Part shown: one piece after another, positions 11,627 through 46,468 of the stretch
Position numbering within the stretch: position 1 is the stretch's first letter
Layout of the letters: the number at the start of each line of letters is the position of its first letter
Source: a phage
Length of the DNA: 64,000 nt
Sequence record: NC_100372.1
Reading direction: 5' to 3' (one strand)
The notes under the pieces: generated by a model
Seen by the model: the letters and a program-made list of their open reading frames with translations, nothing else
Database searches by the model: none
Told to the model about the DNA's origin: nothing
Program-made: the position numbers and the translations under genes

Positions 11627-11857
11627 ATGAGTCATAACTCCAAGTGGAAGGATCTTGGTTTTGCAAGTCGGGCAGAATATGTTGGTTGGCTTTGGTTCAA
11701 TGGCCTGACAAACGATATTAAAATGTATGATGATGTTTATTATGACGAGTATACAGGTAAAATTATAAATATCTCTGTAGAAGAGGATACCTTTACCCAA
11801 CAAGATACTGATACCTGCCTTGATAAATACGTTGATGAAGTGGAGGAAGCAAATTGA
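11627..11857 (+). CDS. Hypothetical acidic protein (76 aa)
   Basis: ATG 11627 after AAGGTGG. Stop overlaps the nrdA start. Confidence 0.55.
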   Translation: MSHNSKWKDLGFASRAEYVGWLWFNGLTNDIKMYDDVYYDEYTGKIINISVEEDTFTQQDTDTCLDKYVDEVEEAN

Positions 11858-14169
11858 TCACCAAGGTAATTAAAAGCAACGGATGTGAAGTAGCATTCGA
11901 TCCGGAACGTTTAAATAAGGCAGCTATTTTCGGTGACGACGGTAACGGCAATTGGTCACATATTGCACTTGATGCATACAAACGGCTGTATGATGGATGC
12001 ACAACCAAAGAAGTTAACCAAGCTATTATAGACTCCTGTGTTAGCCGTAAGGACGAAGCACATTCTCGTATGGCTGGTCGTGTTCTTATCGGTCAGATTT
12101 ATAAAGAGGCTTTTGGAGGATTCACAAAGATCCCTTCCTTACCATCATTTTACAATACCATGGTTGATAAAGGGTATTGGGAGGATATGGGCTATAGCTT
12201 TACCGAGTTAAACACTTTAGACACTGTTATTGATCACAGTAAAGACCTTGGTTATGGCTATGCAGTCCTTAAACAGTTTCGAGACAAATACGGGATCAAG
12301 GATACTCTTAAAGACACCCTGTTCGAATCTCCACAGATGATGTTTATGGGGATAGCGATGGCTGTCATGAAAAATATGCCGAAAGAACGCCGTATTGACG
12401 ATGTTGTAAAATTATACACTTATCTGTCAGACTTAAAGATCAATGCCCCGACACCGTACTTAAACGGTCTACGCACAGGCAAGACAGGGTATGCATCTTG
12501 TTGTGTAATAAAAGCTGACGATACAGCAAAATCTATTGGTGTGGCACGTGAAGTTGCATACACAATGACGGTTAACCAAGCAGGTATTGGCTACTATTTA
12601 TCATCAAGATCTGCAGGTGATGGTGTTCGTGGTAACACTATTAAACATATGGGCAAGATTCCATATTATCGAGGTATTGATGCTGGAGTTAAGGAGAACA
12701 GACAACAATCACGTGGCGGTTCTGCAACAGTATCATTCCTTGCACTGGACCCGCAGATTGATGAGCTAATCCGTTTGAGAAACCCTATGACTGTTGCTTC
12801 AAAAAGAATCAACACCATGGACTACTCTATAGGTATTAATAGGTCGTTTATCAACCGTGTGGCTAAGAATTTAGATTGGATGCTTGTTTCTTATAAGCAC
12901 GCTCCTCAACTGCATGAGGGTATCTTCACCATGTCTATGGAGGAGTTTGATGCAGAGGTTGATCGTATCGCTAAAGATGACAGTATTCCTAAAACATGGA
13001 TCCGAGCTAGAGATCTTGCTGTTGAGCTGATCACTCAGCGTACCGAGGTTGGAAGGCTGTACGTATACTGGACAGATGAGATGAATAGACATACACCTTT
13101 TAAAGATGTAATCTATTCAAGTAACCTGTGTGCAGAAATAGCCCTCCCGACAAAAGGCTATTCAGATATGCGTAATATCTTCAAGTACGATGTTGATGAT
13201 GGCGAAGTTGCATTGTGCTTCCTGTCATCTCTTGTAGCCGGAAGGGTTACCCCAGAGGAGTATGAGGATGTTGCATACTACACGGTGCTTATGATTGACA
13301 ATGTTATGGAAATCATGACATATCCGTATGAAAATATGGAGAGCACTGTTAAAAAACGCAGATCCATTGGGGTTGGCCTTACTAATGTTGCACATTTTAT
13401 TGCCAGCCACAAGGTTACTTACGGATCTCCTGAAAGTAAACAGCTTGTTCACGATCTTGCAGAACTTCACAGCTACAGCTTGCATAAGGCAAGTTTACGA
13501 TTGGCAAAAGAGCGTGGTGTCTGTGAGTGGATGCATAAAACAAAATACCCGGAGGGTTGGTTACCAATCGACACCTATAACAAAGAGGTCGATAGTGTGG
13601 TGAAAGATCCTTCTCTTAAGCAGGATTGGGAAGGGTTACGTAAAGAAATCATTGAAAATGGTGGGCTACGTAATAGCGTTCTTGAAGCATATATGCCTAA
13701 TGAAAGCTCTTCGCTGGCAACAAACACCACTAACGGGGTTTATCCTGTCCGTGAACACATTATCTTTAAAAAGTCACCACAAGGGCAGGTGCTGTTTATC
13801 GTTCCTGAATATGATGAACTGAAAGAGTATTATACCTCGGCTTGGGACGTTGATACTAGCGACATGATTGATATGTATGCTGTGATTCAAAAATTCACAG
13901 GACAGGCAATCAGTGCTGACCTATATATTGATTACACCAAGTTGAAAGATGGTAAAATTTCAATGAAAGAGCAGCTGGGGTATCTTATCCGTGCTACTAA
14001 ATTCGGGATGAAGACATGGTATTACTTAAACTCTCGGGTTGGTGCTGGTGACTCTTTGACAGAGGAGCTTCACGCGAAGAAACAGGCTGAAGATGAAACC
14101 AGAAAGAACTATCCTTTGATTGCAGATAGTTCAGTTGAAGATCCGTATTGCGAAAGTTGTGCACTGTAA
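11854..14169 (+). CDS. nrdA: Ribonucleotide reductase class Ia, alpha subunit
   Basis: N-terminal ATP-cone (VIKSNGCEVAFDPERL), active-site NLCAEI, C-terminal CESCAL redox pair. TTG start after GGAGGA. Confidence 0.95.
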   Translation: MITKVIKSNGCEVAFDPERLNKAAIFGDDGNGNWSHIALDAYKRLYDGCTTKEVNQAIIDSCVSRKDEAHSRMAGRVLIGQIYKEAFGGFTKIPSLPSFYNTMVDKGYWEDMGYSFTELNTLDTVIDHSKDLGYGYAVLKQFRDKYGIKDTLKDTLFESPQMMFMGIAMAVMKNMPKERRIDDVVKLYTYLSDLKINAPTPYLNGLRTGKTGYASCCVIKADDTAKSIGVAREVAYTMTVNQAGIGYYLSSRSAGDGVRGNTIKHMGKIPYYRGIDAGVKENRQQSRGGSATVSFLALDPQIDELIRLRNPMTVASKRINTMDYSIGINRSFINRVAKNLDWMLVSYKHAPQLHEGIFTMSMEEFDAEVDRIAKDDSIPKTWIRARDLAVELITQRTEVGRLYVYWTDEMNRHTPFKDVIYSSNLCAEIALPTKGYSDMRNIFKYDVDDGEVALCFLSSLVAGRVTPEEYEDVAYYTVLMIDNVMEIMTYPYENMESTVKKRRSIGVGLTNVAHFIASHKVTYGSPESKQLVHDLAELHSYSLHKASLRLAKERGVCEWMHKTKYPEGWLPIDTYNKEVDSVVKDPSLKQDWEGLRKEIIENGGLRNSVLEAYMPNESSSLATNTTNGVYPVREHIIFKKSPQGQVLFIVPEYDELKEYYTSAWDVDTSDMIDMYAVIQKFTGQAISADLYIDYTKLKDGKISMKEQLGYLIRATKFGMKTWYYLNSRVGAGDSLTEELHAKKQAEDETRKNYPLIADSSVEDPYCESCAL

Positions 14170-33573: not shown

Positions 33574-33713
33574 CACACAAGTCTGCTTTGCAGGTTTAGC
33601 TGCTCAGCTAAGGTTCTGGAGTCACCTATAACATCTTCCAACTAAATTTCCTACCAACACAGTTACTTACCCACCACACATGACTGTTTGCTTGTTTAGT
33701 GAGCAGTCATCCC

Positions 33714-33741
33714 TTGACATTCTTGCCTATCTTGATAAAAT
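33714..33741 (+). promoter_or_regulatory. sigma70-type promoter firing into ORF-free DNA
   Basis: TTGACA(33714-33719), 16 nt spacer, TAAAAT(33736-33741). No ORF with an SD downstream. Confidence 0.5.
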
Positions 33742-33936
33742 TAAGTTCTTCTCTTTTCTTTTACCGAGTAATTCGGGTTTTCTGTTCTCTTCGGTTTGAA
33801 GGGGTATGGAGATACACCTGAGTGAACAGGGTGAACAACCGAACCTTTAGCTATGGCATTAGCATGGCGAAGCGGACGGGTGACGAAAGAGGGGCCGGAG
33901 GACACCAGTCACTGCCATATAGTATATGGGTGATAA

Positions 33937-34476
33937 CCTGAAGAGTCTGAATAAGTGTTTAAGTACCAGTCAGAGGAAAAGGTGAATGGTAGCCGAAGGG
34001 GGAGGGGGGTTTCTTATATCTTTAATTTGTATACTTTATATACACTTGTAAACCAATTCAATTAGGATCTGTTTACCACACAAAGTGGATGGAGACAAAT
34101 ATCACCTATTAAACTTGAATTATTTATAGAAAATACCACAACACCGCTTAAGTCTTTGATTTTACACACAAATCTTACAAATATCCTACCTCCATATTTA
34201 ACATACTTGTAACATATTCCATATCCTACCTGCCTGATCAATTTACTCCCACCACATTCCCACATTTTCCCTGTCTGTACTACCCCACCCCCGCCGGGAG
34301 TCCCGTCATATCTGGCTTTCCAGCAAATATCACACCCACAAATATCATCACCTGAAGAGGGTTTCATCCCATAATACCTGCCTTACCTGAAGAGCGCTTC
34401 ATACACCACCTAAATTTTTTAATTGACCCCTCCCCGCCGCCGGAGAGGTTGGCTTTTCCCACACAGGCCTGAAGAG
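33937..34476 (+). repeat. CCTGAAGAG 9-mer, 4 direct copies
   Basis: Copies at 33937-33945, 34351-34359, 34386-34394 and 34468-34476. Confidence 0.8.
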
Positions 34477-34706
34477 TCAGCCAGAAATATCTGAACAGGT
34501 CCAGTTATGCCCCGATTTTGTGCTTGTCCTACAGGAGTGCTGCCCTGTCAGGAGCCGGTAGCGACTGGAGTGCTGCCAGGCGGACGGAATGGGAATACTT
34601 CTCATTTTTATAATAATTCTCAAATATCGAGGCAGTGAGGCAAATTAATAGGCCAGGCCGTTCACACAGTGGCACAACATTTGCAATCTATCTTGTGGGA
34701 GTGAAT

Positions 34707-34740
34707 GAGAATACCTATCATTGTGAGAATGGTTATCATT
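34707..34740. promoter_or_regulatory. Two adjacent Fur-box-like sites (GAGAATNNNTATCATT)
   Basis: GAGAATACCTATCATT (34707-34722) and GAGAATGGTTATCATT (34725-34740). The second matches 13/19 of GATAATGATAATCATTATC. Confidence 0.4.
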
Positions 34741-35038
34741 ACGGGCAATTTAACATAATACCTATTATGCGCACCACTGGCGATACATACAGGGATTGAT
34801 AACATGGGTTACTGTTTACGCACATAACAATTATATTTATTACTATTTGTGTGGGATATAGTTAGCAACCAATAGATTAGATATTGACCTGCAGACTTCT
34901 GACCGTCCAGACGTCTAAACGCCCACACAACAAGGATTATACATACATTCCTGAATGTAAACAGGGCCGCAAAAAATGCTACCATACCAGTTTGTAAATT
35001 TTTCATGCAGCACTTGACAAAGAGGAGAAAAACTTGTC

Positions 35039-35100
35039 TGACACAATGTGACAAAATTGCCACTTTTGACACTTTTACCTTTGACACAATATGACACAAT
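35039..35100 (+). repeat. TGACACAAT iteron cluster (5 copies, 3 perfect)
   Basis: Perfect copies at 35039-35047, 35082-35090 and 35092-35100. Variants at 35049 (TGACAAAAT) and 35067 (TGACACTTT). Confidence 0.8.
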
Positions 35101-35193
35101 AACGGCTGTTACTATTCCATATCTCACTGTTTACGTATAGACTGTTTACGCCTGAATAGTTTACGCCCAAACTGTTTACACAGAGATGATAAG

Positions 35194-35432
35194 CCATGAC
35201 ATTCGTTTGCATGAAAACAATTAACAAGTTAATAATATATGACATAATATAAAAGCAGGGCAACTATTAGAAGATCTATAGTTGCCTTGCTTGTTATGTC
35301 ATGATTAACTAAATACAAGGCAACTATGATCTGAATAATAGATTGCAGAAAAACTATCACGGGGGTGATTGTTACTGCTTTTATATTATGTCGCGACTCC
35401 GTCGCGCCATGCCATTCGTTTGCATAGTTGCC
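35194..35432. repeat. Nested direct-repeat / inverted-repeat / palindrome structure
   Basis: 19-nt DR CCATGaCATTCGTTTGCAT (35194-35212 and 35407-35425, 1 mismatch). 18-bp perfect IR GACATAATATAAAAGCAG (35241-35258) / CTGCTTTTATATTATGTC (35375-35392). GGCAACTAT/ATAGTTGCC at 35259, 35278, 35319 and 35424. Confidence 0.85.
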
Positions 35433-36040
35433 TTATTGTTACAGGTAAAACAATTACATTATTAATTATTTCTTATCTTTCTCTTAGTCATCTAATGATT
35501 CCAGTCAGTATAGTAATGTACAGTAAACATTAGACGACTAAAGATTTCTCTGTGTATAATAACTTATCGTGACAATTTCGAACTGTTTACGAAAAATGTT
35601 GACACCTGAGCTGATTTATGTTATGCAGTTTACACGAATAATTATTTTATGCAGGTATTGACTATTCCGTTATTCTGTGGTTGGAATAAATACTTTGCAG
35701 ACTATAGAATGGCGTGCGTACGTGAATTCTGAGATCTGGCGGCTATAGTTATACTCGATTTTTCGCGTAGAACACGCTTTCGATGCTGTGTAAGTGTATG
35801 ACTTATAAAGATTTTTAGTTGTTGACAAGATATTGGAGATGTGCATCAGGTTAAAATTTGTGCAATAGCGGCATTACGTGCACTTTTGGGAGAGAAAACG
35901 GGTAAAAATGGCCCTGCTACCACACAATGAAAGATTATGCAATGGTTATTTTCCATGTATATTTGTACAGTATGTGGGATTGATGGCTAGTCAATTATTC
36001 CACTTGCCAGGTAGGGCCGTTTATGGTAGGAGAAGAGCAG

Positions 36041-36069
36041 ACAAAAAGAAAGGGGCCTTTAAGCCCCTT
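36041..36069 (-). terminator. Rho-independent terminator ending the - strand arm
   Basis: On the - strand: AAGGGGC-TTAAAG-GCCCCTT followed by TCTTTTTGT. Confidence 0.8.
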
Positions 36070-36087
36070 GATAATTCAGTTAAGAAA

Positions 36088-36507
36088 TTATAATGATTCG
36101 TATATTTCAAAAATCCGATTTGCCAGGTCGTTACGGTAGCGGAATTTTTCATCGCGCTTGATCATTAAATCCTTATAGCCGTACTCTTTAAGCACTTCAT
36201 TAACTTTATAGCGGCATACCTGCATATTATCTTGAGCGTCACCAATAAACTTGTTGCTGTGGTGCATTGCTTTAATTTCTTCTTCCAGGACCAGGGCAAC
36301 TACCCGGACCGGATCAAGCTGGTAGGCGGTAACATCTATGCGGCATTGTAGACGGCTTTTAACGTCTGCCACCGGATATACTGCAACCTCTTCCCCGTCA
36401 ACATTGACAATAATTAGTTTACCATCGATTTCGAATCCTTTCGCCGCCGGACCGTGACAAAAAGCGTTATCAAAGCTATATGCCGGATTATCAGATTTAA
36501 TGTTCAT
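36088..36507 (-). CDS. Hypothetical protein
   Basis: AGAGG SD. Own promoter at 36557-36585. Confidence 0.65.
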   Translation of the reverse strand: MNIKSDNPAYSFDNAFCHGPAAKGFEIDGKLIIVNVDGEEVAVYPVADVKSRLQCRIDVTAYQLDPVRVVALVLEEEIKAMHHSNKFIGDAQDNMQVCRYKVNEVLKEYGYKDLMIKRDEKFRYRNDLANRIFEIYESL

Positions 36508-37630: not shown

Positions 37631-37677
37631 GACAGGCACCCCCGGTGATTGTCTCCCCCCGTCGCCAGGTGCCTGCC
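37631..37677 (-). repeat. GC-rich hairpin element, copy C (candidate ncRNA / protein-binding hairpin)
   Basis: On the - strand: GGCAGGCACC-UGGCGACGGGGGGAGACAAUCACCGGG-GGUGCCUGUC. The 23-nt core (37635-37657) is the exact reverse complement of 45480-45502. Confidence 0.7.
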
Positions 37678-37692
37678 GTGAAACAAGTATAA

Positions 37693-44947: not shown

Positions 44948-45121
44948 TTAGTTAGAATTATTTTTTGGGCAGAATTCTCCAGCCGCCGCCCCTGCCAGGT
45001 TAACCATCATTTTTTCGTACTCTTCTTTATGTTCCAACGCTCCCGCCATAGCCTTTTCAACCAGGGCGATAGCCTCAGCGTCATTAATCGCTACATTTCC
45101 AGGGATCCTATTACCTTTCAT
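44948..45121 (-). CDS. Hypothetical protein (57 aa, below the track cut-off)
   Basis: MKGNRIPGNVAINDAEAIALVEKAMAGALEHKEEYEKMMVNLAGAAAGEFCPKNNSN. GAGGAGG SD. Confidence 0.5.
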   Translation of the reverse strand: MKGNRIPGNVAINDAEAIALVEKAMAGALEHKEEYEKMMVNLAGAAAGEFCPKNNSN

Positions 45122-45281
45122 TTTTGTACCTCCTCTTCAATTGTTACCTGCCCTGTAGCATAGGCCTACCAGGTTTGCAAGCTTTCACTCTCTCCTACCT
45201 GGTCAGTCAGGTCCTGCCAGGCTGGCCCCGCCAGGTTGCAGCGGTTGGTGTATTATGTTAGAAAAAATTTTTGAAGAAGTG

Positions 45282-45312
45282 TTGACAGCGGCCCCGCCAG
45301 GTGGCACAATAT
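45282..45312 (+). promoter_or_regulatory. Candidate + strand promoter upstream of hairpin element A
   Basis: TTGACA(45282-45287) then CACAAT/CAATAT at 17-19 nt. Antisense to all neighbouring genes. Confidence 0.4.
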
Positions 45313-45327
45313 ACCTATCGAAAGGAC

Positions 45328-45374
45328 GGCAGGCACCGGTGACGGGGGAGACAACCACCGGGGATGGGCGCTGC
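45328..45374 (+). repeat. GC-rich hairpin element, copy A (candidate ncRNA)
   Basis: GGCAGGCACCGGTGACGGGGGAGACAACCACCGGGGATGGGCGCTGC. Inner stem CCGGUG/CACCGG. Followed by the Fur-box-like GAGAACGGTTATCATTATC (45382-45400). Confidence 0.65.
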
Positions 45375-45461
45375 ATAAAATGAGAACGGTTATCATTATC
45401 ATTTAAAAATTTATGCAAAAAATCCTTGCTTTCTTTGTCCTGTGTGATACTATAATAACAA

Positions 45462-45504
45462 GCCGGGGCAACAGGGGCCGGGAGACAATCACCGGGGGTG
45501 CCCG
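45462..45504 (+). repeat. GC-rich hairpin element, copy B (candidate ncRNA)
   Basis: GCCGGGGCAACAGGGGCCGGGAGACAATCACCGGGGGTGCCCG. Starts 6 nt after a consensus TATAAT (45451-45456). Followed by the Fur-box-like GAGAATGATTATCATT (45518-45533). Confidence 0.65.
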
Positions 45505-45639
45505 TTATTCTGCAAACGAGAATGATTATCATTCAAAATTCTAAATGAGAACTTTTCGCATTTCATAAATTTAGTTAGCATGCTAATTACCTACCGTGAC
45601 AATTCTATATAAAATAATACCTCCTTAAATATTTCCATA

Positions 45640-46110
45640 TACAAATTTTAAAAATCCATTTCCGAAAACGAAAAATCGATTTCGTCCCCAAAAATTTCAG
45701 GTCGAGCTCCGGAACGATTTCCAGAAAATCTGATTCAGAAAACGAAAAACAGATCGAGTACTAAGAAATTTATCGAGAAAAATTTTCAGAAAATTCAATC
45801 TTTGAAACGAAAAACAGATCGAGTACTGAGAGAGATGTATCAAAACCTGCTGAGAATAATGGGTTTATTGTTATAAAGGGTCAAAGGTAAGCTGGGAAAG
45901 TTCCGGTAGAAGGGTGAGAGTATGTGCGGAAAATCTGGAATAGTAACTTAAAGTACGGTGCGAACGATAGAATGAGCAGCACATCTTATCGCGCCTGTCT
46001 TGAAAAATCCATTTTAGTTTTCGATCCATTTTCTGATTTTCTAAGAATTTTAAAATATCCGGCTAGGTAAAATATCAAAAGGAGGAAATCCATTTTAGAA
46101 ATCCTCCTTA
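45640..46110. repeat. AT-rich degenerate tandem repeats / iterons (origin-like)
   Basis: 22-nt perfect DR AACGAAAAACAGATCGAGTACT at 45741-45762 and 45806-45827, with a degenerate copy at 45667. AAATCCATTTTAG at 46005 and 46086, with variants at 45652 and 46023. Confidence 0.75.
46071..46109 (-). terminator. Rho-independent terminator
   Basis: On the - strand: AAGGAGGA-(15 nt loop)-TCCTCCTT followed by TTGATATTTT. Confidence 0.6.
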
Positions 46111-46138
46111 TACTTGATGTGCCAGGGATTTTCAAGTA

Positions 46139-46468
46139 TCAACTGTCTTTGTTTTTAGGCTTGTGCATACGTAGAGGTATGGTCTTTATAACATTCCATC
46201 TGCCCAACCCCTCCCAGTTCCAATTGTGAGCGTGATACCCAGTTATGCATGCACTGCTGGCGTGATCATAAGCATAAGAGAACGCTATGCGAACCAGGTG
46301 GGGCCAGTCCCTCCACGGCTGTGGACCGTAAGCCTTTCTCCAACACCGACACAAACTAATTGTCTCAAGAATAGGTAGAATAACAAATCCATATACCGCC
46401 ACCAAAATGGTAAGAGCAATGATTGTCAGGAATACATACCCTGCAGTTGAAATAATGATCTCTGTCAT
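46139..46468 (-). CDS. Membrane protein (N-terminal TM hairpin)
   Basis: IIISTAGYVFLTIIALTILVAVYGFVILPIL. ATGA overlap with the upstream gene. Confidence 0.65.
   Translation of the reverse strand: MTEIIISTAGYVFLTIIALTILVAVYGFVILPILETISLCRCWRKAYGPQPWRDWPHLVRIAFSYAYDHASSACITGYHAHNWNWEGLGRWNVIKTIPLRMHKPKNKDS

What the first reader, a model, noticed from the sequence alone, without database searches (positions are those of the whole stretch)
45560..46138. Second ORF-free island: AT-rich tandem iterons next to a purine-rich block, likely a paired cis-element with the 34-36 kb island
A 22-nt perfect direct repeat AACGAAAAACAGATCGAGTACT occurs at 45741-45762 and 45806-45827 (65-bp period), with a degenerate third copy at about 45667. 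It is embedded in repeating AAAAATTTCAG / GAAAATC strings. AAATCCATTTTAG occurs at 46005 and 46086, with variants at 45652 and 46023.

Between them, 45840-45990 is G/A-rich and C-poor like 33790-34015. Together with hairpin elements A/B and the Fur-like boxes, this island repeats the motif repertoire of the first island at smaller scale. That is consistent with two related origins or regulatory hubs.
Basis: partly seen in the sequence, partly recalled or inferred. Interest (0 to 1): 0.55.

Follow-up and report, generated by a model that had tools for sequence, protein, structure and literature searches.

The report
Conserved repeat array, candidate phage origin
A gene-free stretch in an rV5-like E. 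coli phage holds three ancient ~70-bp repeat units next to the most easily melted DNA in the window, which makes it a testable candidate for this phage group's unmapped replication origin, though no function has been shown.

Summary
The window comes from a Vequintavirus, an rV5-like E. coli myophage. The reported repeats are real. The 22-mer occurs twice, 65 bp apart, and belongs to three tandem units of 65-74 bp. AAATCCATTTTAG occurs twice exactly. The block at 45835-45998 is G-rich and C-poor.

The interval does not code for protein, shows no conserved RNA structure and matches no Rfam family. It is nevertheless under strong constraint. The repeat units are 95-98% identical across 11 Vequintaviruses, against about 78-86% for the flanking gene. 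The same three-unit array, in one gap-free 72-nt register, occurs in five genera.

The units carry helically phased A-tracts. They lie just downstream of two plus-strand sigma-70-type promoters and of the least stable 60-bp duplex in the 64 kb.

My best reading, at about 0.4, is a DNA-level protein-binding (iteron-type) array that forms a transcription-activated replication origin. The rivals are a long non-coding RNA, a purely regulatory site and a pac site.

The proposed pairing with the 34-36 kb island is only partly supported. The interval shares no significant sequence with that island. Only the palindromic Fur-like boxes, which lie outside the interval, and a similar G-rich composition are shared.

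The parts
45282..45310 (+). P1, a sigma-70-type promoter (TTGACA-17-CACAAT with TG). This is context, upstream of the interval.
   Evidence: It scores 10/12 in the promoter scan. It is 97-99% identical in 11 Vequintaviruses.
45326..45375 (+). GC hairpin element A with loop GGAGACAACCACCGGGGA (context).
   Evidence: The fold z-score is -2.05. It lies directly downstream of P1.
45426..45453 (+). P2, a sigma-70-type promoter (TTGCTT-16-TACTAT with TGn). This is context.
   Evidence: Read from the sequence. It falls below the scan's threshold. The hexamers are conserved across genera around a variable 16-17-nt spacer. Matching promoters are called in PVP-SE1, CR3 and Hena1.
45460..45505 (+). GC hairpin element B with loop GGAGACAATCACCGGGGG, at the 5' end of the predicted P2 transcript (context).
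   Evidence: The outer stem shows some compensatory changes across genera. The single-sequence fold z-score is only +0.25.
45379..45562 (.). Three palindromic Fur-box-like sites (45379-45397, 45515-45533, 45544-45562). This motif is the only sequence shared with island 1.
   Evidence: There are 6 sites in the window against 0.59 expected, and none elsewhere in the ECP2303 genome. The two strongest are the best matches in the window to the canonical Fur 19-mer, at 15/19 and 16/19.
45560..45660 (.). AT-rich, easily melted segment, a candidate DNA unwinding element.
   Evidence: 45601-45660 is the least stable 60-mer in 64 kb, at -62.0 kcal/mol against a mean of -79.8 (sd 4.4). 45560-45659 is the second least stable 100-mer.
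45651..45724 (+). Tandem unit U1, the degenerate copy. Its core forms a hairpin followed by a U-run on the minus strand.
   Evidence: It is 95-98% identical among Vequintaviruses.
45725..45789 (+). Tandem unit U2, with AGAAAATC..ATT and GAAAACGAAAAACAGATCGAGTAC subsites.
   Evidence: The stretch AGAAAACGAAAAACAGATCGAGTAC, which holds all but the last base of the 22-mer, is invariant in all 11 relatives.
45790..45834 (+). Tandem unit U3, which carries the second exact 22-mer.
45835..45998 (+). Variable block of fixed length that is G-rich and C-poor.
   Evidence: About 70% identity, against 95-100% in the flanks. Length is 162-163 nt in all 11 relatives, with C at 12-16% in every one. No codon periodicity. 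No conserved RNA fold. GC skew is +0.36, against +0.11 and +0.01 at four-fold sites.
45999..46078 (+). Second AT-rich repeat patch. It holds ATCCATTTT twice (46007 and 46025) and AAATATC twice (46053 and 46070).
   Evidence: 46000-46050 is 94-97% identical among relatives. Analogous direct repeats occur in the other genera. It ranks among the least stable 100-mers.
46079..46110 (-). Hairpin AAGGAGGA...TCCTCCTT. It is an intrinsic terminator of the upstream minus-strand gene 46139-46468. One AAATCCATTTTAG copy lies in its loop.
   Evidence: The fold z-score is -3.2 on both strands, with a UUUUGAUAUUUU tail on the minus strand. slur16 carries a compensatory change, AGGAGAA/TTCTCCT.

Best explanation
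The interval is the core of a roughly 1-kb non-coding cis-acting DNA element (45122-46138) that is conserved throughout the rV5-like phages.

Shown here:
- It consists of three ancient direct-repeat units of about 65-75 bp.
- Each unit carries phased A-tracts and two sequence-conserved subsites, AGAAAAT(C/A)C..ATTT and GAAAA..GATCGAG(A/T)AC.
- These are followed by a spacer of fixed length (162-163 nt) and variable sequence that is G-rich, and then by a second patch of short direct repeats.
- The element sits immediately downstream of the least stable duplex in the window and of two tandem plus-strand sigma-70-type promoters. These promoters point against the flanking minus-strand early genes.

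Inferred:
- The units are binding sites (iterons) for an unidentified phage or host protein that bends or wraps the DNA.
- Transcription from P1 and P2 runs into the AT-rich segment.
- The G-rich non-template block favours a persistent RNA:DNA hybrid.
- Together these would open the duplex and prime DNA synthesis. The element would then be a transcription-activated origin of replication, working like the T7 primary origin, T4 oriF/oriG or ColE1.

The palindromic Fur-like boxes between the promoters and the AT-rich segment would act as a roadblock or switch.
For: Non-coding. Variable columns by codon position are 18/24/20 in the best minus-strand ORF, against 15/11/42 in the flanking gene. Frameshifting indels occur, and no ORF is present in all relatives.

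Not a structured RNA. There are no Rfam hits. Fold z-scores are -0.7 and -1.15 for 45640-46115. Alifold z-scores for the variable block are -0.5 and +0.2. An alignment of 18 units gives 0.0 kcal/mol on both strands.

Strong constraint. 45650-45825 and 46000-46050 are 88-98% identical across 11 Vequintaviruses, against 70-86% for the neighbouring CDS.

Deep conservation of architecture. There are exactly three units, spaced about 63-69 and 74-78 bp apart, in Mydovirus, Certrevirus (CR3), Seunavirus (two phages) and Henunavirus. The window phage has the same two spacings in reverse order (74 then 65). All 18 units align without gaps. Hena1 changed the GATCGAG subsite in all three of its units together, as expected if one trans-acting factor reads all three.

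DNA-level features. AAA periodicity of 10.5-11 bp is significant in the window (10/300 shuffles), Mydovirus (4/300), PVP-SE1 and GAP31 (0/300 each). There are loop-less palindromes such as A6T6, CTCGATCGAG and AGTACT. The least stable 60-mer of the 64 kb lies at 45601-45660.

Uniqueness. The unit motif occurs once per genome.

Plus-strand promoters are enriched in the island in other genera: 8 against 2.4 expected, 6 against 1.8, and 9 against 2.8.

The G-richness is selected, not neutral. GC skew is +0.36, against +0.11 and +0.01 at four-fold sites.

The origin of rV5 is undefined in the literature (PMC3606486).
Against: There is no experimental signal of any kind.

No initiator-like gene lies nearby. 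All ten flanking proteins lack Pfam hits and fall in PHROGs of unknown function.

There is no DnaA box or IHF core in the island, and no GATC clustering.

The cumulative GC skew shows no inflection at 45-46 kb. The rV5 authors found that skew changes only follow transcription direction.

The very AT-rich segment is not obviously conserved in Seunavirus, where a third promoter occupies that position.

A-tract phasing is absent in CR3 and not significant in Hena1.

Units of 65-75 bp are far longer than classical 17-22-bp iterons.

The promoters are consensus predictions only. P2 in the window is below the scan threshold, and the window island as a whole is not significantly enriched for promoter-like sites (5 found against 3.0 expected).
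Confidence: 0.4

Rival explanations
1. The element is a long plus-strand non-coding RNA of about 650 nt, running from P2 to the 46079-46110 hairpin. Its three A-rich repeat modules would be read as RNA, for example as a sponge or binding platform for a host or phage RNA-binding protein. The C-poor block would keep the untranslated transcript free of Rho loading sites.
For: The plus-strand promoters have conserved hexamers and variable spacers across genera. A conserved 5' hairpin follows each promoter, including the copy at 37.6 kb that points the same way as its neighbouring genes. All motif copies are in direct orientation on the plus strand. The C-poor, G-rich composition is selected. A related phage, PhiTE, is known to express a tandem-repeat ncRNA (PMC3475682).
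Against: There is no conserved or thermodynamically unusual structure on either strand. Helical phasing of A-tracts and loop-less palindromes are properties of double-stranded DNA. There is no convincing plus-strand terminator, since the hairpin's U-tail is on the minus strand. No similar repeat occurs in any bacterial genome searched. The locus is not syntenic with the PhiTE escape locus: it lies between phiTE_078 and 079 homologues, not 202 and 203.
Confidence: 0.2
2. The element is a purely transcriptional control region or insulator. An array of operator-like sites for a phage early or middle regulator, or for host nucleoid proteins, would govern the convergent P1/P2 promoters and separate two minus-strand early operons. 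It would have no role in replication.
For: The island lies between a minus-strand terminator (46110-46079) and the next minus-strand promoter-like site (TTGCAA-17-TACAGG at about 45183-45155, read). A second terminator-like hairpin lies at 45695-45658 on the minus strand. The DNA is curved and A-tract-rich, and UP-element-like AnTn tracts lie upstream of P1 and P2. Palindromic operator-like boxes sit next to the promoters.
Against: The unit motif occurs at only one place in the genome, whereas regulators of a phage temporal class usually have many targets. The array lies 200-400 bp downstream of the promoters rather than over them. The fixed-length G-rich spacer and the extreme duplex instability are not explained.
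Confidence: 0.2
3. The element is a pac site for headful packaging. The small terminase subunit would bind the left array and the right repeat patch on bent DNA and cut in the non-conserved central block, as in SPP1 pacL-pacC-pacR or P1 pac.
For: Two repeat arrays flank a 162-163-nt centre of free sequence and fixed length. The DNA has intrinsic A-tract curvature. Vequintaviruses are reported as circularly permuted headful packagers with no pac site mapped (PMC8407724 and PMC13211470).
Against: The element lies in the early region, about 78 kb from the large terminase gene (ECP2303 90064-91611 against the island at 11751-12846). Known pac sites usually lie in or beside the small terminase gene (my own knowledge). 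The tandem promoters, the boxes and the G-rich composition are not explained.
Confidence: 0.07
4. There is no dedicated function. The interval would be a decaying remnant of duplicated sequence or of lost small genes, or it would hold unannotated small ORFs.
For: Several records annotate small hypothetical proteins here. A 52-53-aa minus-strand ORF is open in 8 of 11 relatives.
Against: The repeat units are more conserved than the neighbouring genes, and their architecture persists across genera. No codon periodicity is seen. The ORFs are broken or frameshifted in some relatives. The two ORFs inside the interval hit no PHROG or Pfam family. The minus strand is pyrimidine-rich here, so stop codons are rare by composition alone.
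Confidence: 0.03

Closest known systems
T7 primary origin, T4 oriF/oriG and ColE1 (transcription-activated, R-loop-primed origins)
   Same: One or two promoters are directed into an AT-rich, easily unwound segment. There is a G-rich non-template stretch downstream, as in ColE1 or mitochondrial CSB. No dedicated initiator gene needs to be adjacent.
   Different: The promoters here are host sigma-70-type predictions, not T7-RNAP or MotA-dependent ones. The known examples lack a three-unit ~70-bp iteron array, palindromic boxes and a second repeat patch. No R-loop or priming has been shown here.
Iteron origins of plasmids and phages (lambda ori, P1 oriR, pSC101, R6K), and the paired ori/crr of P4 or oriL/oriR of SPP1
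   Same: There are direct repeats in a fixed register, intrinsically bent A-tract DNA and an adjacent AT-rich region.
   Different: Classical iterons are 17-22 bp at a spacing of about 22 bp and sit beside or inside the rep gene. Here the units are composite, 65-75 bp long, and no Rep-like gene or DnaA box was found. The motif shared with island 1 is a different one, the palindromic box.
PhiTE pseudo-ToxI, the tandem-repeat ncRNA of an rV5-like phage that mimics a type III antitoxin (PMC3475682)
   Same: It is a non-coding tandem repeat in the same phage lineage.
   Different: The locus differs. The pseudo-ToxI repeats are 36 nt and near-identical, and they expand by slippage. Here the units are 65-74 bp and only 72-78% alike, but each is conserved across species. 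There is no bacterial counterpart and no pseudoknot-like fold.
SPP1 and P1 pac sites
   Same: Repeated motifs on bent DNA lie on both sides of a central region.
   Different: The location is far from the terminase genes, and the element is associated with promoters.
E. coli Fur box (GATAATGATAATCATTATC)
   Same: The neighbouring palindromes match 14-16 of 19 positions, and the two strongest are the best such matches in the 64 kb.
   Different: The boxes lie outside the interval. The cross-genus consensus is TGAGAAT-N-ATTCTCA rather than TGATAAT-N-ATTATCA. Binding by Fur has not been tested.

Membership tests
Iteron-type replication origin | Three or more directly repeated, sequence-conserved binding units | tested here: met
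   There are three direct units in the window and in five other genomes. All 18 units align without gaps.
Iteron-type replication origin | Adjacent AT-rich DNA unwinding element | tested here: met
   45601-45660 is the least stable 60-mer of the 64 kb. This feature is not clearly conserved in Seunavirus.
Iteron-type replication origin | Cognate initiator (Rep) gene identified, usually adjacent | tested here: not met
   The ten flanking proteins have no Pfam family and fall only in PHROGs of unknown function.
Iteron-type replication origin | Host factor sites (DnaA boxes, IHF) | tested here: not met
   There is no TTWTNCACA or WATCAANNNNTTR in 45122-46138.
Iteron-type replication origin | Replication demonstrably starts there | not testable with these tools
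   This needs marker-frequency analysis, nascent-strand mapping or a plasmid ori assay.
Transcription-activated (R-loop) origin, T7/T4/ColE1 type | Promoter(s) firing into the unwinding region | tested here: inconclusive
   P1 scores 10/12. The P2 hexamers are conserved with a variable spacer across genera, and plus-strand promoters are enriched in the other genera. These are consensus predictions only, with no transcript data.
Transcription-activated (R-loop) origin, T7/T4/ColE1 type | G-rich non-template strand that favours a persistent RNA:DNA hybrid | tested here: met
   GC skew is +0.36 at 45835-45998 and is kept in all 11 relatives despite about 30% sequence divergence. Four-fold sites show only +0.11 and +0.01. 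The skew is weaker in other genera.
Type III toxin-antitoxin antitoxin-like repeat RNA (ToxI / pseudo-ToxI) | Near-identical tandem repeats of about 34-45 nt resembling a bacterial antitoxin array | tested here: not met
   The units are 65-74 bp and 72-78% identical. No match was found in 185,579 bacterial or archaeal genomes or in E. coli genomes. The locus differs from the PhiTE escape locus.
Structured non-coding RNA (Rfam family or new) | Conserved secondary structure or covariation, or a match to a covariance model | tested here: not met
Protein-coding gene | An ORF conserved in relatives, with substitutions biased to the third codon position | tested here: not met
CRISPR-like array | Identical repeats separated by unrelated spacers | tested here: not met
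   The segments between the cores are themselves homologous between units and conserved across species.
pac site (SPP1 / P1 type) | Terminase-proximal location and virion DNA ends mapping to the site | tested here: inconclusive
   The site is about 78 kb from the terL gene, so the location feature is not met. Virion DNA ends cannot be tested here.
   The best shared word is 12 nt, and 26 of 100 shuffles are as good. The shared boxes lie outside the interval.

The most novel reading that the evidence does not exclude
The two non-coding islands are the two replication origins of rV5-like phages. Each would be fired by host RNA polymerase through an R-loop in its G-rich block. Each would be gated by host Fur bound to the palindromic boxes that lie between promoter and unwinding element. 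DNA replication of a lytic phage would then be coupled to the iron status of the cell.
Probability: 0.06. Interest if true: 0.8.

Novelty: new variant of a known kind. Interest (0 to 1): 0.45.

Why it matters
rV5-like phages (Vequintavirinae) are widely isolated and are used as therapy and biocontrol candidates. Their origin of replication was explicitly left undefined in the rV5 genome paper, and the pac site of Vequintaviruses also remains unmapped.

This element is one of the most conserved stretches found in the early region analysed here, and it codes for nothing. It gives a precise target of about 500 bp, with defined sub-elements, for origin mapping, protein pull-downs and deletion analysis.

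It also shows that several "hypothetical protein" annotations in this gap are probably spurious. So probably are the "tRNA" annotations on the equivalent region of a Klebsiella phage.

Tried and rejected
- **Known RNA families:** Rfam scans at gathering and at permissive thresholds, on the window and on three related loci, found nothing.
- **tRNA:** ARAGORN found none in the window or in the Klebsiella locus whose record annotates "tRNA-Met/Ile/Lys" on the homologous elements.
- **Structured RNA:** Single-sequence folds and column-shuffled RNAalifold gave no signal for the variable block or for the units. The first alifold script timed out.
- **Protein coding:** Rejected by the codon-position test and by ORF inconsistency between relatives.
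- **Type III antitoxin mimic:** Considered because of PhiTE pseudo-ToxI. Rejected on unit length and divergence, on locus, and on the absence of any bacterial counterpart.
- **Dam/GATC clustering as in oriC or P1 pac:** GATC is common throughout the genome (359 sites against 240 expected) and is not enriched here.
- **DnaA boxes and IHF cores:** None in the island.
- **Minus-strand promoter inside the variable block (45884-45856):** Not conserved in relatives.
- **TTTGAGATAA motif:** It recurs in the central block of other genera but is absent from the Vequintavirus island.
- **G-quadruplex in the G-rich block:** The GGG runs are too widely spaced and are not conserved (read).
- **T5-like injection-stop signal:** Incompatible with circular permutation.
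- **IMG/VR pattern scan:** Only 3 loci, so it was not pursued.
- **Literature searches:** No description of this element was found.
Full report
**Identity of the window.**
The region 45100-46200 is 98% identical to Escherichia phage ECP2303. It is 86-93% identical to about 100 other Vequintavirus genomes, including rV5 itself. The finding lies in a gap of about 1 kb (45122-46138) between two minus-strand early genes, 44948-45121 and 46139-46468. All ten neighbouring proteins belong to PHROGs of unknown function and have no Pfam domain.

**Check of the observation.**
- The 22-mer occurs at 45741 and 45806, with no other copy at up to 3 mismatches and 0.00 expected.
- It is the core of a 55-nt match at 78% identity, 65 bp apart. 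A third, degenerate unit lies 74 bp upstream at 72% identity.
- AAATCCATTTTAG is exact at 46005 and 46086, with variants at 45652 and 46023.
- The copy at 46086 lies in the loop of a strong hairpin at 46079-46110 (z = -3.2). On the minus strand this hairpin is followed by UUUUGAUAUUUU. It is therefore the intrinsic terminator of the upstream 109-aa gene.
- The block 45835-45998 has 13% C, 29% G and GC skew +0.36, close to 33790-34015 at +0.38. Only 2.2% of windows of that size reach this skew.

**It is not a gene.**
In an alignment of 11 Vequintaviruses, variable columns in the longest minus-strand ORF fall 18/24/20 by codon position. In the adjacent real gene they fall 15/11/42. No plus-strand frame shows periodicity either. 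One clade carries -2, +1 and +1 indels, and no ORF is present in all relatives. GenBank annotations of the gap disagree from record to record. The two ORFs inside the interval match no PHROG or Pfam family.

**It is not a recognisable or structured RNA.**
Rfam gives nothing, even at E <= 10, and there are no tRNAs. Folding 45640-46115 gives z = -0.7 on the plus strand and -1.15 on the minus strand. The variable block gives z = -0.05. RNAalifold against column shuffles gives z = -0.5 and +0.2 for the variable block. The only signal in the repeat region (minus strand, z = -2.75) comes from a local hairpin in unit 1.

**It is strongly constrained.**
Pairwise identity is 95-100% over most of 45275-45800 and 94-97% at 46000-46050, with dips to 81-91% at 45400, 45550-45600 and 45700. 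The flanking CDS is 70-86% identical. The block 45825-46000 drops to about 70%. Despite that divergence, its length is 162-163 nt and its C content is 12-16% in all 11 phages. Four-fold degenerate sites in this phage have GC skew of only +0.11 and +0.01 and are about 18% G. The G-richness of the block is therefore selected, not a mutational drift.

**The architecture is ancient.**
BLAST finds only the neighbouring box and hairpin segment in other genera. Reading the syntenic gaps, however, shows the same order of parts. The loci read were Klebsiella Mydovirus, Pectobacterium CB7, Cronobacter CR3 and GAP31, Salmonella PVP-SE1, Erwinia Hena1 and the Phapecoctavirus anhysbys. The order is:
1. plus-strand sigma-70-type promoter or promoters;
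2. a GC hairpin with loop GAGACAAnCACC;
3. one to five palindromic boxes;
4. an AT-rich repeat array;
5. a central block;
6. a second patch of short direct repeats.

In five of the six Vequintavirinae genomes read beyond the window (CB7 is the exception, with five core copies at 31-46 bp), the array has exactly three units. They end in GATCGAG(A/T)(A/C)C, or CTCAAGT/TTCGAGT in Hena1. The spacings are about 63-69 bp and 74-78 bp. The window phage has the same two spacings in reverse order, 74 then 65. All 18 units align without a single gap in a 72-nt register, with consensus ..gaaaaa.tTttt...AAAATaCgaTtt.gAaattGAAAAa.cGATCGAG.aCCc. RNAalifold finds no common structure on either strand. Hena1 has changed the last subsite in all three of its units, which is what one expects if a single trans-acting factor reads all three.

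**Features that point to double-stranded DNA as the functional form.**
- A-tracts recur with a 10.5-11-bp period. This is significant against shuffles in the window (10/300), Mydovirus (4/300), PVP-SE1 and GAP31 (0/300 each). It is not significant in CR3 or Hena1.
- The units contain loop-less palindromes: A6T6, CTCGATCGAG, CGAGTACTCG and AGTACT.
- 45601-45660 is the least stable 60-bp duplex of the whole 64 kb, at -62.0 kcal/mol against -79.8 +/- 4.4. 45560-45659 is the second least stable 100-mer. Segments of island 1 and 46002-46101 are also among the twelve least stable 100-mers.

**Transcription context.**
P1 (45282-45310, 10/12 with TG) is called by the scan. P2 (TTGCTT-16-TACTAT, 45426-45453) falls below the scan threshold. 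Across genera, however, its hexamers are kept while the spacer varies. The equivalent promoters are called in PVP-SE1, CR3 and Hena1, where plus-strand promoter-like sites are three- to four-fold enriched. Seunaviruses add a third promoter directly upstream of the array.

Each promoter is followed at once by the GC hairpin, whose outer stem shows some compensatory change. A third copy at 37635-37680, on the minus strand, also follows a promoter-like site. Plus-strand transcription into the AT-rich segment and the array is therefore likely, but it is not shown.

**Relation to island 1.**
A word-7 BLAST of 45560-46138 against 33580-36100 gives nothing better than a 12-mer, and 26 of 100 shuffles match that. 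A word-9 search of the whole island against the rest of the window finds only the hairpin, at 37.6 kb, and the palindromic box. The box AATGAGAAYNRTTMTCATT occurs three times in each island and nowhere else in the window. It also occurs nowhere else in the remaining 70 kb of the ECP2303 genome, apart from a gap of about 3 kb that was not fetched. The two strongest of these boxes are the best matches in the window to the canonical Fur 19-mer, at 15/19 and 16/19. This is a resemblance, not a test. Island 1 also has a near-consensus plus-strand promoter (33714-33741, 11/12) in front of its own G-rich block. The two islands thus share a box type and a compositional feature. The repeats that define this finding are not shared.

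**Interpretation.**
The data fit a unique, cis-acting, protein-bound DNA element best. Combining tandem promoters, the most meltable DNA in the region, a bent iteron array and a selected G-rich non-template block, I favour a transcription-activated origin of replication (confidence about 0.4). It would work like the T7 primary origin, T4 oriF/oriG or ColE1. This family comparison rests on my own knowledge. The rV5 genome paper states that the origin could not be defined and that skew changes only track transcription (PMC3606486).

Against this reading:
- no initiator gene was found;
- there are no DnaA or IHF sites;
- there is no skew inflection;
- the AT-rich segment and the A-tract phasing are not universal across genera.

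The rivals are a long plus-strand ncRNA whose repeats act as RNA (0.2), a purely regulatory or insulating nucleoprotein site (0.2), a pac site (0.07) and no function or small ORFs (0.03). The pac reading is possible because Vequintaviruses are circularly permuted headful packagers with no pac site mapped.

A link to the PhiTE pseudo-ToxI repeat RNA (PMC3475682) was examined and rejected. The locus, the unit length and the unit divergence all differ, and there is no bacterial counterpart.

**Novelty.**
I found no description of this element in the searchable literature. It belongs to a known kind, iteron or origin-like cis elements. Its form is unusual, with three composite ~70-bp units conserved in register across genera and coupled to promoter-hairpin-box modules. 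Its function is unproven.

Noticed in passing
window 45326-45375 (+), 45460-45505 (+), 37635-37680 (-): A GC-rich hairpin with the conserved loop GGAGACAAnCACCGGGG occurs three times, against 0.01 expected. Each copy lies immediately downstream of a sigma-70-like promoter. It is conserved across two phage subfamilies, with some compensatory changes in the outer stem. It is a candidate 5' RNA element of unknown role.
   Followed up: partly
window 34588-34606, 34704-34740, 45379-45397, 45515-45562: The palindromic box AATGAGAAT-N-ATTCTCATT occurs three times in each non-coding island and nowhere else in the genome. The two strongest copies are the best matches in the window to the E. coli Fur-box consensus, at 15/19 and 16/19. 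The cross-genus consensus has G/C where the Fur box has T/A.
   Followed up: partly
L017 1640-1725, L018 1625-1705, L016 2335-2415, L020 1635-1720, L007 2330-2400, L006 2395-2470: Other genera carry a further highly conserved element behind their first promoter: GCCACCCCACGGCGAAAAGGCGGGGCTAAC...GGAAGGTGGATCGCCGG. It has no Rfam match and is absent from the window. It may be an unrecognised small RNA.
   Followed up: partly
L007 (OY978796.1) 1878-2573: The record annotates tRNA-Lys, tRNA-Ile and tRNA-Met in this non-coding region, two of them on the box, hairpin and promoter elements. ARAGORN finds no tRNA in the locus, so these are probably false calls.
   Followed up: yes
window 45203-45532 (-): A 109-aa ORF (phrog_14993, rV5 ORF 198) is annotated in many Vequintavirus records. 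It overlies the two promoter-hairpin-box modules, and rV5_ev147 has a 1-nt deletion within it. It is probably not a gene.
   Followed up: partly
window 33714-34015: A near-consensus plus-strand promoter (TTGACA-16-TAAAAT, 11/12, with TG) precedes the G-rich, C-poor block of island 1, which ends in GGGGGAGGGGGG. The fold z-score is only -1.39.
   Followed up: partly
window 35057-35179 and 35215-35530: Island 1 has its own, unrelated tandem repeats: TTGACAC-type repeats, and 3.6 copies of the 15-nt unit ACTGTTTACGCCTAA. It also holds several of the least stable duplex segments in the window.
   Followed up: no
L017 1397-1579, L018 1369-1560, L006 2075-2341, L016 1862-2284 (all +): In other genera a small plus-strand gene sits at the left edge of the island, co-oriented with the promoters. 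It is DUF7170 in Seunavirus, and phrog_19316 or phrog_33408 in Phapecoctavirus and Certrevirus. Vequintavirus has none there.
   Followed up: partly
plasmid collection record CP057073.1 (137,565 bp): This record is filed as a non-mobilizable E. coli plasmid. It matches the interval at 85% identity over 95% of its length and has the size of a Vequintavirus genome, so it is probably a phage genome.
   Followed up: no
window 45150-45225: The left edge of the island is the least conserved part, at 45-58% identity, with large deletions in several relatives. It holds a minus-strand promoter-like site, TTGCAA-17-TA(C/T)AGG, for the downstream 57-aa gene.
   Followed up: no
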